From a virus: a DNA stretch of 64,000 bases. Positions within the stretch are counted from its first letter, which is position 1. The number at the start of each line of letters is the position of its first letter. The notes beneath the pieces were generated by a model. That model did not search any database. It was not told where the DNA came from and saw only the letters and a list, made by a program, of their open reading frames with translations. Shown here piece by piece: positions 12,768 to 61,098 of this stretch. The position numbers and the translations under genes are program-made. The stretch covers positions 64,001-128,000 of IMG/VR virus record IMGVR_UViG_3300045988_166055. One strand, 5' to 3'.

Positions 12768-13973
12768 TTGCCTAGTTACTCAAATAGTAGTTTAGCTACA
12801 GTGAAGATACTAACAAAAAATTATGGAAGCAGAACAGATAGCAGATTCAATAATCCATCTGGAGTAATTGATCATATTGTTATTCACCACATGGCAGGTG
12901 TAATGTCTGCAGAAAGTTGTGGTAACTGGTTCAAATATGGTACCGATGGAGCATCCTCAAATTATGGAATAGGAAGAGATGGAGATATTGGACTATATGT
13001 AGAGGAAAAGAATAGGTCATGGGCAACATCGAGTGGAAAGATTGATTGCAGAGCAGTAACAATAGAAGTTTCAAATAGTGTTGCCGGTGGTGAATGGCCT
13101 GTAAGTGATGCGTCATATAAATCGCTGATAAAACTTGTTGCAGATATTTGCAAGAGAAACGGAATAAAACGATTGAACTATACAGGTGACAAATCTGGAA
13201 ACTTACATATGCACAAATGGTATGCTTCTACAGCCTGCCCTGGACCATATTTAGAAGCAAGATTTCCTGATATAGCTAATCAAGTAAATAATATTTTATC
13301 AAATCCTTCATATAATCCTACTAGGTCACCGTCGTCGGTAAACATAAGTATAGATTCAAGTATACCTGCTGATACAACAACTGCTTATGCTTTAGCTGTA
13401 AATGGAGGAATACTTCCATCACCTGAACAAATAGACCCATATGTAATAACAATAAATAGAAAAGTAAAATCAGTAGACTTCAAGAAGATAAAAGAACTTG
13501 GAGTAATAGGGGTAGTTGTTGAATTAGGTTTCCTATTTGATTCAACGCATTCAAAAGTTGAATTTAGAAATCCTAATTTAATAAATCAGATACATATGAT
13601 TCAGGACGAAAATCTTCTATACGGTATGTATTTCAACGGAAGAGCAAGAACATTACAAGAAGCTAAAGAAGAAATGTATGAAGTGTATCTTGCTGTAAAA
13701 TCATTTCATCCTAATTTAGGGTTCTGGGTAGTTCCGTCATTCACATTCAACAAAACAAAAAATGATGAAATACTAAAGTTATACAAAGAGACATTAGAAG
13801 AACTCGGACTTAAGGGTCAGATAGGTCTATACACTAAACGTGAAGAATTAAAGAAGATAGACTGGGAAAAGGATTCGGAAGATTGGTTGCTTTGGATTGA
13901 CGATCATATTGATGCTTTTAACAACATAACTGAACTTCTTACACCTATGTTCTTTGCATACAATAATCAATGA
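12768..13973 (+). CDS. virion-associated N-acetylmuramoyl-L-alanine amidase with GH25-like C-terminal half
   Basis: IVIHHMAG...NYGIGRDG...AVTIEVSN...TACPGPYL; N-terminal half is a paralogue of endolysin 33325-34563; TTG start supported by the shared MP.Y.NSSL N-terminus. Confidence 0.8.
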   Translation: MPSYSNSSLATVKILTKNYGSRTDSRFNNPSGVIDHIVIHHMAGVMSAESCGNWFKYGTDGASSNYGIGRDGDIGLYVEEKNRSWATSSGKIDCRAVTIEVSNSVAGGEWPVSDASYKSLIKLVADICKRNGIKRLNYTGDKSGNLHMHKWYASTACPGPYLEARFPDIANQVNNILSNPSYNPTRSPSSVNISIDSSIPADTTTAYALAVNGGILPSPEQIDPYVITINRKVKSVDFKKIKELGVIGVVVELGFLFDSTHSKVEFRNPNLINQIHMIQDENLLYGMYFNGRARTLQEAKEEMYEVYLAVKSFHPNLGFWVVPSFTFNKTKNDEILKLYKETLEELGLKGQIGLYTKREELKKIDWEKDSEDWLLWIDDHIDAFNNITELLTPMFFAYNNQ

Positions 13974-54040: not shown

Positions 54041-54115
54041 TGTCAATTAGTTTATGAGGTAAAACATTGTAGCTTAAGATACAATAAGTTGGTTCAATTC
54101 CAACATTGACAGCCA
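54041..54115 (+). tRNA. aberrant tRNA-like gene with an 8-nt anticodon loop (UAA or UUA)
   Basis: Perfect acceptor TGTCAAT/ATTGACA + G-CCA; D arm GTTT-ATGAGGTA-AAAC; T arm GTTGG-TTCAATT-CCAAC; anticodon stem TTGTA/TACAA closing GCTTAAGA; 3-nt variable region. Confidence 0.55.
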
Positions 54116-54234: not shown

Positions 54235-54326
54235 GGCGCGATACCGAAGTGGTCATAACGGAGCGGTCTTGAAAACCGTAGGCGGTGATGAGCCGTCCGT
54301 GGGTTCGAATCCCACTCGCGCCGCCA
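54235..54326 (+). tRNA. tRNA-Ser (anticodon UGA), class II
   Basis: Acceptor GGCGCGA/TCGCGCC, loop CT-TGA-AA, long variable arm, T arm GTGGG-TTCGAAT-CCCAC, G-CCA. Confidence 0.85.
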
Positions 54327-54549
54327 TGCCTTTTCATTCAGCTGACATTAGATTGTCAAATTGATGAAAGTGAAACCAACTATGCTGGCAGGTTGTCGAC
54401 GGGTTGAAGAGCCGTAGAGTCTAAACTATTCTCCTCTATTCTAGAAAGAGTCGGAAAGCTAGGCCCCGTAGTAGCAGCCGAAAAGTATCCTAAAACGATA
54501 GGCGTTAAAAAATGTTTTATAGGTGACAGCCCGGAAAGACGGGCATTCT

Positions 54550-54645
54550 CATCTGCTAGAACAATGGTAGTTCAGATAAGTTTATGCTTATTCCGTGTCT
54601 GTTGGTCAATCAGACATTATCTCGGTTCGAATCCGAGGCAGGTGA
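54550..54645 (+). tRNA. atypical class-II-like tRNA look-alike 1 (UAU-type loop, no encoded CCA)
   Basis: Acceptor CATCTGC/GCAGGTG; D arm GAAC-AATGGTA-GTTC; hairpin ATAAG-TTTATG-CTTAT (6-nt loop); extra arm GTCTG-TTGGTCAAT-CAGAC; T arm CTCGG-TTCGAAT-CCGAG. Confidence 0.4.
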
Positions 54646-54649
54646 CAAA

Positions 54650-54977
54650 TGTCTACTGGTCACCATCTACATACGACAATCAAAACTGCATAGGAGATGG
54701 AATTGGCAACGGCAGCCATGATAAGTGAAGCGATGTTCGAGTCATCAACCTGATCCTGTTCGACTCAGGCAGGGCATGGTGCAAAACTTATCAAGAGGAA
54801 CTAAGTACCTGCCTCGCTTCGGATAGCAAAGAAGGCGTTAGTAGTAATCGAAAAACTACTCGCGGTTACAGGGAGGGAGCGGCGTTATAGGTAAACCTCC
54901 TGGGTGTTCTGCTATCGTGCACCTTAGAAAGGCGAAGCTTTTCAGTTAGGACTAATCCGGCCAGATAGCAAAAATAT
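54650..54977 (+). ncRNA. ORF-free, G+C-rich structured spacer (candidate stable RNA)
   Basis: No ORF in the track; several local hairpins; lies between the tRNA look-alike and tRNA-Gly. Confidence 0.3.
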
Positions 54978-55449: not shown

Positions 55450-55483
55450 CCGTCCGGGTGTTGGCGCATCCGGACGGCTTTTT
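55450..55483 (+). terminator. rho-independent terminator
   Basis: CCGTCCGG-12 nt-CCGGACGG then CTTTTT. Confidence 0.75.
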
Positions 55484-57014: not shown

Positions 57015-58043
57015 TTGTCACAGTCATCTTGATTGTGTGGATTGAAATAAGGGCATACGGAGAAAGTGGTCGTATAAACGTTGTGGTGATCAAGCAATGC
57101 CTGAAGTATCAACGTGACAGATCGGAGAGACGATCAAAAGCGAGGTTCGATTCAGGAAGGTTACAAAATGTATTCCATTTAGAACCGGGTTACGCTGTCT
57201 AAGTGGTTGCCCCTGATGGTCCGGTACGATTCCGGAGGGAATGATTGCTAGAATCATTCCTAACGCTTAGACCTATCTTTTCTATATAGCTGGCCACTAT
57301 TCTGCCAATCGACGGATTGGATGAGGTTTCGACCATCAGATAAACGGCTGAAAATGTATAGGCGTTTACTGCTTAACGAAATGAAGCGGGCTGTTGTTCA
57401 TCTCAGGATAAAAAGATGGCGTGCCAGCCGACATTGTTAGCCTATTTCGGTAGGTATTCGGTTAGAATAAGGAATGCTACTTATTCGGGAGCTAAATTGA
57501 ATGTGCATCCTTCTGAAGTTGGAGTCTCGAAGATAACGGTTCTGAGAGATAGATGTTAAGTTAGTACTTAGCATTGAGGTTAAACTTGTCAGCTCCTAAA
57601 AGTTAATATCGAGCAAACTCACCATAAAGTGTTCTAGCTGCTAATCTAAAAGAGAATGAGATGATTAGAAGGATTGAGCGAATCTAGATGCTCGTTATTA
57701 TATTTGCCATCTGCTGGTCCTACACAGCAGTGAGGATGGTAGGACATCCAATAACCAAGCAATCGGTGGAGATAGCGCCGGACACCTCGCCTGTTGAGGA
57801 GGGAATTTGAACAAAAAGGTAAGATATGTTCACACCAGAACATAAGGGCATATGGAATGGTGAAAATACTTACTAAACCAATCTGCTAGGTTATCTGAGA
57901 GAATGTCAGGATTTGAGGCAGATAAGTGATAGAATGCAGTACTCTCATTTGACTTTGAGAAGAACCTTTCATATTATCACTTAATGAGTTCTATGCGTTG
58001 CAAACACTTCTCTCATTCGGGATAGAAAAGAAGGGTTAGACAT
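57015..58043 (+). ncRNA. large (about 1 kb) ORF-free, highly structured RNA candidate
   Basis: Abuts tRNA-Leu and tRNA-Glu; nested helices (57213-57221 with 57331-57339) around hairpins 57238-57260 and 57305-57320; H-type pseudoknot at 57711-57745. Confidence 0.4.
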
Positions 58044-58627: not shown

Positions 58628-58722
58628 CCTGCCTTAGCATAACGGTAGTGCAACCGGCCTATACCCGGCATAAGGCTCTAGATTGGGGCAAGATCTCGGT
58701 TCGAATCCGAGGGGCAGGACCA
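58628..58722 (+). tRNA. atypical class-II-like tRNA look-alike 2 (UAU-type loop)
   Basis: Acceptor CCTGCCT/GGGCAGG + A-CCA; D arm GCAT-AACGGTA-GTGC; hairpin CCGG-CCTATAC-CCGG; extra arm GCTC-TAGATTG-GGGC; T arm identical to look-alike 1. Confidence 0.45.
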
Positions 58723-60440: not shown

Positions 60441-60517
60441 GGGCCTTTAGCTCAGTTGGTTAGAGCATCCGGCTCATAACCGGATCGTCCCGGGTTCGAA
60501 TCCCCGAAGGCCCACCA
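60441..60517 (+). tRNA. tRNA with CAU anticodon (elongator Met or Ile2)
   Basis: Acceptor GGGCCTT/AAGGCCC (G1:C72, so not an initiator), loop CT-CAT-AA, one T-stem mismatch, A-CCA. Confidence 0.75.
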
Positions 60518-60823: not shown

Positions 60824-60892
60824 GATGCTTTACGCCAGTTGGTAGACGACTCTTGTACAGAGAAGACGCTGGTTCGAATACAGCAAGCATCA
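60824..60892 (+). pseudogene. degenerate tRNA-like element (GUA-type loop)
   Basis: Perfect acceptor GATGCTT/AAGCATC but a 3-bp anticodon stem (CTC-TTGTACA-GAG), mismatches in the D and T stems, no CCA. Confidence 0.35.
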
Positions 60893-61098
60893 AAAGCTGC
60901 TCTGATTGGGTCCGTGCTTGATACTAAGTTGCAGGAACATAAAGGCCTGCACGCTAATCTTCATCACCCAAAGAAGAAAAAGGACAGCAGTAAAAAATCT
61001 GTCAAAGATCAGATAAGACAGAAACTGCATCGAGCAAGTAGAGATAGCGCTGTCTTGAAAGCTCAAAAATATCCTATCTGCAGTAGGATATTAAATCT

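What the first reader, a model, noticed from the sequence alone, without database searches (positions are those of the whole stretch)
54550..54645. tRNA look-alike with a giant extra arm and a 6-nt UAU-type anticodon loop (copy 1 of 2)
The acceptor stem (CATCTGC/GCAGGTG), D arm and T arm are good. However, the anticodon hairpin is ATAAG-TTTATG-CTTAT, two nucleotides separate it from the D stem, and a 29-nt extra arm carries a 5-bp stem (GTCTG/CAGAC). The 3' end reads ACAA rather than N-CCA. Its T arm (CTCGG-TTCGAAT-CCGAG) is identical to that of the second look-alike at 58628-58722. Both expose UAU, which would read AUA, a very common codon here. Yet both have class II architecture, which normal bacterial tRNA-Ile never has. 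Possibilities include an unusual AUA decoder, a serine- or leucine-type identity carrying an Ile anticodon (recoding or mistranslation), or a decoy for host anticodon nucleases.
Basis: partly seen in the sequence, partly recalled or inferred. Interest (0 to 1): 0.7.

Follow-up and report, generated by a model that had tools for sequence, protein, structure and literature searches.

The report
Disarmed tRNA look-alike in phage array
This is a real tRNA-shaped gene in a phage tRNA cluster, related to a widespread phage isoleucine tRNA with an extra hairpin, but its closed anticodon hairpin and missing CCA end suggest it probably no longer decodes codons.

Summary
Window 54550-54644 folds on its own into a cloverleaf plus an extra hairpin (z = -3.97). 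The acceptor, D and T arms are perfect. The anticodon arm is 6 bp with a 6-nt loop (or 5 bp with 8 nt), the extra arm is 7 bp with a 9-nt loop, and the 3' end reads ACAA. ARAGORN at default settings and Rfam's tRNA model both miss it.

It lies in a tRNA "slot" of an 18-gene phage array. Sister genomes have an ordinary-length tRNA(CAU) in that slot, with identical flanks.

The second look-alike (58628-58722) belongs to a widespread family of tRNA-Ile(UAU). I found no paper describing this family. Its extra hairpin covaries and its loop is conserved as YAGAUWR. It occurs in many viral contigs, in mobile tRNA arrays of bacterial genomes, and in cultured Lactobacillus phages.

Copy 1 shares the five-helix architecture and the T arm but is not a clear member (56 bits against at least 80). 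It occurs only in seven near-identical genomes. It lacks CCA, whereas all 17 ARAGORN-called tRNAs in the array have it, and its discriminator base varies.

All its stems are compensated and its body varies less than the flanks. The best reading is a folded tRNA-like RNA that is not aminoacylated. A young pseudogene and an odd decoder remain possible.

The parts
54550..54556 (+). acceptor stem, 5' strand (CATCTGC)
   Evidence: Pairs with 54638-54644 in the unconstrained MFE fold and in the family-model alignment.
54559..54573 (+). D arm GAAC-AATGGTA-GTTC (U8, A14, A15, G18, G19 all present)
   Evidence: It has the same TAG..C-AAYGGTA-G..C pattern as the extra-arm tRNA-Ile(UAU) family.
54575..54592 (+). 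anticodon-position hairpin: 6-bp stem GAUAAG/CUUAUU with 6-nt loop UUUAUG (or 5 bp with the 8-nt loop GUUUAUGC)
   Evidence: The arm is 18 nt instead of the canonical 17, and the family model aligns it with one inserted G. The only substitution in the body among 7 genomes (54590 A>G) keeps the pair as U.G.
54595..54617 (+). extra arm: 7-bp stem GUGUCUG/CAGACAU with 9-nt loop UUGGUCAAU
   Evidence: MFE fold. This loop next to a T loop occurs only in this clade.
54621..54637 (+). T arm CTCGG-TTCGAAT-CCGAG
   Evidence: Identical to the T arm of 58628-58722.
54638..54644 (+). acceptor stem, 3' strand (GCAGGTG)
54645..54648 (+). discriminator and trailer: ACAA here, GCAA or GTAA in relatives; no CCA
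   Evidence: Three of the 10 positions from 54645 vary among 7 genomes, against 1 of 95 in the body.
54522..54544 (+). 5' flank of the slot: GGUGAC half of a leader-trailer stem, plus hairpin GCCCG-GAAAGA-CGGGC
   Evidence: Predicted around both occupants of the slot. The hairpin shows a compensatory C-G to U-A change at 54531/54542.
54659..54664 (+). 3' flank of the slot: GUCACC half of the leader-trailer stem
58628..58722 (+). second look-alike: a bona fide extra-arm tRNA-Ile(UAU), A73-CCA, extra hairpin GCUC-UAGAUUG-GGGC
   Evidence: ARAGORN tRNA-Ile(tat); Rfam 44.7 bits; family model 99.7 bits; the family covaries in all five helices.

Best explanation
54550-54644 is a lineage-specific, tRNA-derived gene with the same five-helix plan as the phage extra-arm tRNA-Ile(UAU) family: acceptor, D, anticodon-position hairpin, second hairpin, T.

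Proposed mechanism:
- It is co-transcribed with the neighbouring tRNAs, from Gln to Gly.
- It folds into a tRNA-like L-shape and is cut out by the tRNA-processing enzymes. The acceptor/T-arm/D-arm module that RNase P needs is intact.
- It is not an ordinary adaptor. The anticodon-position hairpin is closed (6-7 bp with a 4-6-nt loop), no CCA is encoded, and the discriminator is free to vary.

I therefore read it as a stable, uncharged tRNA-shaped RNA kept in a tRNA slot. It could serve as processing punctuation between two structured spacer RNAs, as a decoy for a host factor that binds tRNAs, or both.

Shown here: the fold, the context, the relatedness, the missing CCA and the conservation pattern. 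Inferred: transcription, processing, lack of charging, and the role.
For: - **Fold.** The unconstrained MFE is the cloverleaf plus extra arm, z = -3.97. All roughly 29 base pairs are standard.
- **Compensation.** Every stem differs from the second look-alike and from all family members yet stays paired. The RNA therefore evolved under selection for structure and is not an old wreck.
- **Conservation.** Among 7 genomes the body has 1 segregating site in 95, and that change preserves a pair. The flanking spacers have 28 in 546, and the 10 nt starting at the discriminator have 3. My binomial estimate is p about 0.03.
- **Missing CCA.** All 17 ARAGORN-called tRNAs of the array end in CCA. This one ends ACAA, GCAA or GTAA.
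- **Anticodon arm.** It is 18 nt, with one inserted G relative to the family model. No register gives a 7-nt loop.
- **Slot.** L004 and L005 have a 77-nt tRNA(CAU)-CCA between identical flanks, and a conserved leader-trailer stem encloses either occupant.
- **Spacers.** They are structured, with three compensatory pairs.
- **Precedent.** T4 rnaC, the "species 1" stable RNA in the T4 tRNA cluster, has a canonical T arm and no CCA.
Against: - No expression, processing or charging data exist.
- The conservation argument is weak. It rests on seven very close genomes, and neighbouring real tRNAs vary from 0 to 6.6%.
- No diverged homologue was found, so covariation within copy 1 itself cannot be tested.
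- Lack of an encoded CCA does not prevent function, because CCA-adding enzymes exist. Other phage arrays encode only N73-C74, and the LpeD family member also lacks CCA.
- An 8-nt loop reading G32-U33-[UUAU]-G37-C38 has the layout of a quadruplet decoder.
- A neighbouring tRNA (54041-54115) has the same "5-bp stem + G + 7 nt" layout, carries CCA and covaries.
- No partner for a decoy role is known.
Confidence: 0.45

Rival explanations
1. Young pseudogene. An extra-arm tRNA was disabled by two small lesions: a 1-nt insertion at the 5' side of the anticodon loop, and CCA changed to CAA (or CCA lost at a recombination joint). It has not yet decayed.
For: - The two defects are minimal: one inserted G and ACCA-like changed to ACAA or GCAA.
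- The only other CCA-less element of the array (60824-60895) shows signs of decay in the window: a T-stem G.A mismatch, an anticodon change, and 5-6 differences in about 72 nt from relatives.
- More distant relatives carry a CCA-less Asp-like copy with a 9-nt loop.
- In a cyanobacterial tRNA operon, 3 of 26 array tRNAs were undetectable and called pseudogenes (PMC8421152).
- It is restricted to seven near-identical genomes.
- The 3' boundary (GCAA|TTGTC) resembles the end of the sister tRNA(CAU) minus its CCA (my reading).
Against: - There is no mismatch in any of five helices, and the D- and T-loop consensus is perfect.
- The body has 1 of 95 variable sites, against about 5% in the flanks and 30% in the trailer.
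- The single change preserves a pair.
Confidence: 0.3
2. Functional decoder. After 3' trimming and CCA addition it is charged and reads AUA. Alternatively, with the G-C pair open (8-nt loop G-U-[UUAU]-G-C), it reads the quadruplet AUAA and causes +1 frameshifting.
For: - The loop core UUUAUGC is identical to the anticodon loops of family members L022 and L041.
- AUA makes up 35% of Ile codons.
- The sister genomes fill the slot with a tRNA(CAU).
- tRNA 54041-54115 shares the extra-G loop layout, has CCA and covaries.
- 8-nt-loop tRNAs recur in phage arrays, for example CT[TTGT]AA in L041 and tttg in LpeD.
Against: - G and C close the loop to 6 nt, or to a UUAU tetraloop, in the MFE and centroid folds.
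- There is no CCA, although all 17 ARAGORN-called tRNAs of the array encode it.
- The discriminator, an identity element, is A in one genome and G in six.
- The genome already has an AUA-type tRNA-Ile(UAU) at 58628 and a tRNA(CAU) with C4-G69/C5-G68 at 60441.
- I did not look for AUAA frameshift sites.
Confidence: 0.2
3. A Ser- or Leu-identity class II tRNA carrying an Ile anticodon, giving missense recoding of AUA as in nematode nev-tRNAs.
For: - The extra arm is long.
- It has A15/U48, and A73 in the window copy. By my recollection these are among E. coli LeuRS determinants. This is background knowledge and was not tested.
- nev-tRNA-Ile(UAU) is leucylated in vitro (PMC3333845, PMC4300185).
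Against: - The D arm is class-I type: a 4-bp stem and a 7-nt loop, not the 3-bp stem and long loop of bacterial Ser/Leu/Tyr tRNAs.
- The extra hairpin has 2-5-nt linkers on both sides.
- The discriminator is G in six of seven genomes and A in one.
- There is no CCA and no canonical anticodon loop.
Confidence: 0.03

Closest known systems
Extra-arm tRNA-Ile(UAU) family, defined here. The window's 58628-58722 is a member. It is called tRNA-Ile(tat) by ARAGORN, is unannotated in Lactobacillus phage LpeD, and matching regions in Levilactobacillus phages ENFP1 and 3-521 are annotated tRNA-Ile.
   Same: - Five-helix plan.
- Class-I D arm: TAG..C-AAYGGTA-G..C, with A15/U48.
- 7/5 acceptor/T.
- T arm identical to the window's member.
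- UUUAU core in the first hairpin.
- A second hairpin set off by short linkers.
- Located in phage tRNA arrays.
   Different: - Members have a 7-nt anticodon loop (C/U-U/C-UAU-A/G-N), an extra-hairpin loop YAGAUWR, and A73. Most encode CCA; LpeD and some MAG copies do not.
- Members score at least 80 bits with model R1.
- Copy 1 has a 6/8-nt loop, an unrelated 9-nt extra loop (UUGGUCAAU), no CCA and a variable discriminator. It scores 56.2 bits.
Phage T4 species 1 RNA (rnaC), a small stable RNA of unknown function in the T4 tRNA gene cluster.
   Same: - Encoded inside a phage tRNA cluster.
- Carries a canonical T arm (CCGGG-UUCGAAU-CCCGG).
- The T arm is followed by a strand that partly pairs with the 5' end.
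- No CCA.
- Extra hairpins in between.
   Different: - It is 139 nt.
- I did not look for a D arm, and the MFE fold shows no cloverleaf.
- There is no sequence homology beyond the T loop.
- Membership is not claimed; this is an analogy only.
allo-tRNA(UAU) (Mukai et al. 2017, PMC5389517).
   Same: - A long extra arm with a UAU anticodon.
- Five-stem-junction variants.
- A 6-bp anticodon stem.
- Many appear inactive in translation and sit on mobile or toxin-antitoxin loci.
   Different: - allo-tRNAs have an 8/4 or 9/3 acceptor/T branch, a Sec-like long D stem with a tetraloop, and G73 or U73.
- Here the branch is 7/5 with a canonical D arm.
Nematode nev-tRNA-Ile(UAU) (PMC3333845, PMC4300185).
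   Same: A variable-arm-containing tRNA whose anticodon (UAU) is not Ser, Leu or Tyr.
   Different: - It is eukaryotic and a true class II body derived from tRNA-Leu.
- It is leucylated in vitro.
- It has a canonical 7-nt loop.
Phage tRNAs with altered anticodon loops that escape tRNA-targeting defences (PMC10264068; the PARIS/T5 tRNA-Lys case, PMC11464382).
   Same: Phage array tRNAs whose anticodon loops depart from the host consensus. This array also has C33 in the tRNA-Ile(UAU) and an extra G in 54041-54115.
   Different: Those are functional, chargeable tRNAs with 7-nt loops. A decoy role for an uncharged look-alike has not been shown.
tRNAs with 8-nt anticodon loops: frameshift suppressors and quadruplet decoders (PMC8481270), and yeast mitochondrial tRNA-Thr1 (PMC4756836).
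   Same: If its G-C pair opens, the loop reads N-U-NNNN-R-N.
   Different: In those tRNAs positions 32 and 38 do not form a Watson-Crick pair, and they carry or receive CCA.

Membership tests
Canonical bacterial/phage tRNA (Rfam RF00005; ARAGORN) | 7-bp acceptor stem, D arm with G18G19, T arm with GTTCRANYC | tested here: met
Canonical bacterial/phage tRNA (Rfam RF00005; ARAGORN) | 5-bp anticodon stem with a 7-nt loop (U33, purine 37) | tested here: not met
   The arm is 18 nt: 6 bp + 6 nt, or 5 bp + 8 nt. No register gives 7 nt.
Canonical bacterial/phage tRNA (Rfam RF00005; ARAGORN) | Score above the family threshold, or a default detector call | tested here: not met
   No RF00005 hit at E<=10 in 9.5-kb and 200-nt searches. 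ARAGORN default is silent.
Canonical bacterial/phage tRNA (Rfam RF00005; ARAGORN) | 3' CCA (encoded by every other ARAGORN-called tRNA of this array) and aminoacylation | tested here: not met
   The end is ACAA, GCAA or GTAA. Seventeen of 17 called tRNAs end in CCA. Charging itself cannot be tested with these tools.
   Full-length alignment to R1 with all helices; MFE fold.
   The loop is UUGGUCAAU.
   It scores 56.2 bits. Ordinary tRNAs reach 53-57 bits.
Class II tRNA (Ser/Leu/Tyr type) | Long variable arm | tested here: met
   There are 28 nt between the anticodon-position stem and the T stem.
Class II tRNA (Ser/Leu/Tyr type) | Class II D arm (3-bp stem, enlarged loop) and a Ser/Leu/Tyr anticodon | tested here: not met
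   The D stem is 4 bp and the loop 7 nt. The loop core is UAU.
allo-tRNA (PMC5389517) | 8/4 or 9/3 acceptor/T branch; Sec-like D stem with a tetraloop; G73 or U73 | tested here: not met
   The branch is 7/5 with U8/A9 and a canonical D arm. Position 73 is A or G.
Theta (HDV-like) ribozyme-processed CCA-less phage tRNA (PMC10879173) | HDV-like ribozyme whose cleavage site abuts the tRNA 3' end | tested here: inconclusive
   No ribozyme family appears at E<=10 in the array. By eye, no P1 complement lies downstream. The trailer is hypervariable. No dedicated pseudoknot descriptor search was run.
Y RNA-like YrlA (RF02553) / tmRNA | Match to the family model | tested here: not met
   There is no YrlA hit on this region. 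ARAGORN reports no tmRNA.

The most novel reading that the evidence does not exclude
Copy 1 is a deliberately disarmed "two-headed" tRNA mimic.

In the extra-arm tRNA-Ile(UAU) family, the second hairpin presents a look-alike of the other Ile anticodon loop: CAGAUUA or CAGAUAA, against CUGAUAA of tRNA-Ile(GAU), with U33 replaced. This would recruit or distract a universally conserved tRNA-binding protein, either IleRS or an anticodon nuclease.

Copy 1 would be an uncharged derivative (no CCA, closed first hairpin) whose second hairpin shows a GUC-type loop (U-G-GUC-A-A). It would act as a decoy or sponge during infection.
Probability: 0.1. Interest if true: 0.8.

Novelty: new variant of a known kind. 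Interest (0 to 1): 0.45.

Why it matters
On its own, copy 1 is a narrow-lineage oddity: a tRNA-shaped gene that most likely does not decode. Its value is as a pointer in three directions.

- **An unstudied tRNA family.** It led to a large covarying family of tRNA-Ile(UAU) with an extra hairpin whose loop is almost invariant across phages of very different hosts and across mobile tRNA arrays. I found no paper describing it. The family is experimentally tractable in cultured Lactobacillus phages (LpeD, Lpa804). It bears on how AUA decoders that bypass lysidine get charged and stay accurate.
- **Cassette evolution of tRNA arrays.** Phage tRNA arrays appear to evolve by swapping cassettes within conserved, structured spacers. 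Disabled or repurposed tRNA bodies persist in the slots.
- **Stable tRNA-like RNAs.** It adds a second type of example, beside the T4 species 1 RNA, of tRNA-like RNAs inside phage tRNA clusters. Their function has been open for decades.

Tried and rejected
- **Short intron.** ARAGORN -i removes "cttatt" to give tRNA-Ile(tat). Rejected: bacteria and phages have no known mechanism for splicing a 6-nt insert, and the result still has a mismatched stem.
- **Membership in the extra-arm tRNA-Ile(UAU) family.** Tested with a covariance model and not met.
- **Diverged homologues for covariation.** I ran two viral pattern scans and one metagenome pattern scan. They returned only identical or one-mismatch copies in 7 genomes.
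- **allo-tRNA, class II Ser/Leu/Tyr, YrlA, tmRNA, known ribozymes.** Defining features are absent (PMC5389517).
- **Theta/HDV-like ribozyme after the CCA-less 3' end.** No Rfam hit, no visible P1, and a hypervariable trailer. No formal descriptor search was run.
- **A GGUCA-type motif shared with other tRNA trailers.** TGGTCAA is not enriched: 7 found, 8.9 expected.
- **Kissing interaction between the extra loops of copies 1 and 2.** Six complementary bases by eye, but co-folding gives no gain over the separate hairpins.
- **Local promoter or terminator.** Nothing beyond chance next to it. The unit appears to end at the strong terminator at 55450-55477.
- **Spacer homologues outside the clade.** None among the loci held at that point, L001-L163.
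- **Protein-coding reading.** The 54-aa ORF 54564-54728 overlaps the element. I did not pursue it, because the RNA fold and array context explain the region.

Full report
**1. The observation**

The parts are:
- acceptor CATCTGC/GCAGGTG;
- U8-A9;
- D arm GAAC-AATGGTA-GTTC;
- a hairpin in the anticodon position;
- a second hairpin;
- T arm CTCGG-TTCGAAT-CCGAG;
- 3' end A-CAA.

Two refinements apply. The first hairpin extends by a G.U pair to GAUAAG/CUUAUU (6 bp, loop UUUAUG), so only the canonical A26 follows the D stem. The second hairpin extends to 7 bp (GUGUCUG/CAGACAU, loop UUGGUCAAU).

Folded alone and without constraints, the 99 nt give exactly this five-helix structure. The energy is -32.0 kcal/mol against -19.9 +/- 3.0 for shuffles, z = -3.97, and 0 of 200 shuffles do as well.

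Standard detectors miss it. ARAGORN default and Rfam at gathering threshold report 17 and 18 tRNAs in the window but not this one. Rfam gives nothing for it even at E<=10. ARAGORN calls it only at a lowered threshold or by inventing a 6-nt intron.

**2. Context**

The window is about 36% G+C, and nearly all its long ORFs lie on the + strand. It encodes head, baseplate, endolysin, helicase and ligase genes, so it is a tailed phage.

The element lies in a tRNA array at 53.2-60.9 kb, between tRNA-Ser(UGA) and tRNA-Gly(UCC). No convincing promoter or terminator lies beside it. The first strong terminator is at 55450-55477, so co-transcription with its neighbours is likely. This is an inference.

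I found relatives through the adjacent methyltransferase gene. The element is identical in L001-L003 and has one mismatch in L006. Two metagenome contigs add identical copies.

The equally close L004 and L005 show about 95% identical flanks. There the same slot holds a completely different 77-nt tRNA(CAU) with CCA. The tRNA-Ser cassette is also swapped between these genomes.

A 6-bp leader-trailer stem (GGUGAC/GUCACC) and an upstream hairpin enclose the slot whichever occupant is present. The hairpin and two other spacer helices show compensatory double changes among the seven genomes.

**3. The second look-alike and its family**

58628-58722 is a good tRNA: ARAGORN Ile(tat), Rfam 44.7 bits, A73-CCA. 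Pattern scans recovered dozens of relatives in viral contigs from many samples.

I aligned 21 diverse members. All five helices covary:
- 95.8% of cells are paired;
- 20 of 25 pairs have changes on both sides;
- the covariation score is 0.713 against 0.207 for shuffles (0 of 500 reach it);
- slid controls pair at 47% or less;
- the extra-arm helix has 3 of 4 pairs with double changes.

The body is class-I-like: a 4-bp D stem, a 7-8-nt D loop, A15/U48, and a 7/5 acceptor/T branch. The anticodon loop is canonical in most members (CUUAUAA or CUUAUAC).

The inserted hairpin is a 3-5-bp stem with a 7-nt loop YAGAUWR. The first three bases of its AGAU core are invariant in all 67 long members and the U is kept in 65. 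That set is biased, because the genome hits were selected with CAGATTA.

The same tRNA occurs in 35 bacterial genome or MAG loci. Most of these lie inside 10-26-gene tRNA arrays, and one lies beside mobilisation genes. It also occurs in cultured Lactobacillus phages LpeD and Lpa804, where it is unannotated.

Five full-text searches and several papers gave no description of this family. allo-tRNA(UAU) differs in having an 8/4 or 9/3 branch, a Sec-like D arm and G73/U73 (PMC5389517).

The loop resembles the anticodon loop of tRNA-Ile(GAU): CUGAUAA against CAGAUUA or CAGAUAA. This resemblance is a lead, not a result.

**4. Is copy 1 a member of that family?**

A covariance model of the family (R1) scores copy 2 at 99.7 bits and copy 1 at 56.2 bits. 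The copy 1 alignment is full-length, with all helices, one inserted G before the loop, and an unalignable extra loop.

Real members, including two not used for training, score 80-103 bits. The best ordinary tRNAs score 53-57 bits.

Copy 1 therefore shares the architecture, the D-arm pattern, the UUUAUGC loop core (identical to L022 and L041) and a 20-nt identical T arm with the window's member. It fails the family's defining features: a 7-nt UAU loop, the YAGAUWR extra loop, and a score in the members' range.

Its extra-loop signature occurs nowhere else in the viral or metagenome collections.

**5. Functional status**

Against decoding:
- The anticodon-position arm has 18 nt, and no register gives a 7-nt loop.
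- MFE and centroid folds close it to a 6-7-bp stem.
- All 17 ARAGORN-called tRNAs of the array encode CCA, but this element ends ACAA, GCAA or GTAA.
- The discriminator is A in the window and G in the other six genomes.

Against simple decay:
- Every stem differs from those of copy 2 and of all family members, yet all roughly 29 pairs are standard.
- The D- and T-loop consensus is intact.
- Among seven genomes the 95-nt body has one segregating site (54590 A>G, turning U-A into U.G). The spacers have 28 in 546, and the 10 nt from the discriminator onward have 3. My binomial estimate is p about 0.03, which is modest.

Internal comparisons cut both ways:
- The only other CCA-less element (60824-60895) looks decayed in the window.
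- Distant relatives carry a CCA-less Asp-like copy with a 9-nt loop.
- tRNA 54041-54115 has the same "5-bp stem + G + 7 nt" layout, yet it has CCA and compensatory changes.

**6. Explanation**

My preferred reading (0.45) is a folded tRNA-shaped RNA that is processed like its neighbours but is neither charged nor used on the ribosome. It would be kept either as punctuation between two structured spacer RNAs, or as a decoy for a tRNA-binding host factor.

The rivals are:
- a young pseudogene (0.30);
- a CCA-repaired decoder of AUA or of the quadruplet AUAA (0.20);
- a Ser/Leu-identity missense tRNA (0.03).

The shown and inferred steps are listed under the best explanation.

**7. Comparison with known systems**

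The nearest relative is the extra-arm tRNA-Ile(UAU) family, but membership is not met.

The nearest functional analogy is the T4 species 1 RNA (rnaC). It is a stable RNA in the T4 tRNA cluster whose sequence shows a canonical T arm and no CCA. Its function is unknown, which is background knowledge.

allo-tRNA(UAU) and nematode nev-tRNA(UAU) are convergent cases of extra-arm tRNAs with the same anticodon. Phage tRNAs with altered anticodon loops that evade nucleases (PMC10264068) give a plausible selective setting. Theta ribozymes process CCA-less phage tRNAs (PMC10879173), but I saw none here.

**8. Verdict**

The finding is real, and it is a tRNA derivative. It is a new variant of a known kind: tRNA-like or disabled tRNA genes in phage arrays. 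Copy 1 itself is of moderate interest. The family that copy 2 belongs to is the more valuable lead.

Noticed in passing
window 58628-58722, and loci L021-L155, L219-L328, L329:1499-1590: Widespread extra-arm tRNA-Ile(UAU) family. All five helices covary, and the extra-hairpin loop YAGAUWR is nearly invariant, resembling a tRNA-Ile(GAU) anticodon loop with U33 replaced. It is present in many viral contigs, in mobile tRNA arrays of bacterial MAGs (many of them Pyrinomonadaceae), and in cultured Lactobacillus phages LpeD and Lpa804 (unannotated there). I found no paper describing it.
   Followed up: partly
window 54041-54115: The ARAGORN "tRNA-???" has a 5-bp anticodon stem plus an invariant G-CUUAAG-A. 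That is an 8-nt loop, or a 6-nt loop closed by G.A. It has G73-CCA. The anticodon and T stems show compensatory changes among close relatives, so it looks functional. It could read UUA/UUG from a class-I body or be something else.
   Followed up: partly
window 60824-60895 (L004:19716-19784): A tRNA found only by Rfam (35 bits), with no CCA. The anticodon is GUA in the window and GCA in L004. The window copy has a G53.A61 mismatch in the T stem and 5-6 differences in about 72 nt from relatives. It is probably decaying.
   Followed up: partly
window 54235-54326 and 54550-54645, against L004:12741-12828 and 13055-13131: tRNA cassettes are exchanged wholesale between about 95% identical spacers. 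tRNA-Ser(UGA) has an unrelated sequence in the two lineages, and the next slot holds either the look-alike or a tRNA(CAU). This suggests recombination or homing within conserved spacers.
   Followed up: partly
window 54327-54549 and 54655-54977: The spacers flanking the look-alike are G+C-richer than the genome and structured. Three compensatory pairs occur among seven genomes (54531/54542, 54707/54715, 54861/54884). Two T-loop-like hairpins (54732-54746, 54755-54769) sit within a stem, CCAUG/CAUGG, that I read by eye; it was not tested. No homologue was found outside the clade and there is no Rfam match.
   Followed up: partly
window 57217-57390: A sub-threshold but non-trivial match to RAGATH-36 RNA (44.7 bits, E about 1e-6, gathering score 70) lies inside the tRNA array.
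   Followed up: no
L007, L014, L016: 8818-8894: In more distant relatives, a copy whose body closely resembles the window's tRNA-Asp has a 9-nt loop GAAUUUUAA and GCUA instead of GCCA. It lies right after a normal tRNA-Asp. This is a second case of a CCA-less tRNA copy with an abnormal loop.
   Followed up: partly
many viral loci (e.g. L004:17656-17740, L027, L036, L047, L071, L098, L119, L136): Phage arrays contain many long-variable-arm tRNAs with Thr, Lys, Met, Asn, Glu, Val, Pro, Trp, Cys or Arg anticodons. They also contain several tRNAs with 8-nt anticodon loops, for example CT[TTGT]AA in L041 and tttg in phage LpeD. These are ARAGORN calls and were not validated.
   Followed up: no
L283:4692-4785: In the isolate genome "Alpha proteobacterium AAP81b", a solitary extra-arm tRNA-Ile(UAU) lies beside MobC/NikA, a Toprim-DUF3991 protein and an ADP-ribosylglycohydrolase. 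This is a mobilisable element rather than a phage array.
   Followed up: partly
L113 and L119 (viral contigs): Most tRNAs of these arrays end in N73-C and then diverge, as if only the first C of CCA were encoded.
   Followed up: no
window 58659-58665, and family members: The window's tRNA-Ile(UAU) has C33 (loop CCUAUAC) instead of the near-universal U33, as do four other family sequences. Array tRNA-Ile(GAU) genes in MAG loci also show C33 (UCGAUAA, CCGAUUA).
   Followed up: no
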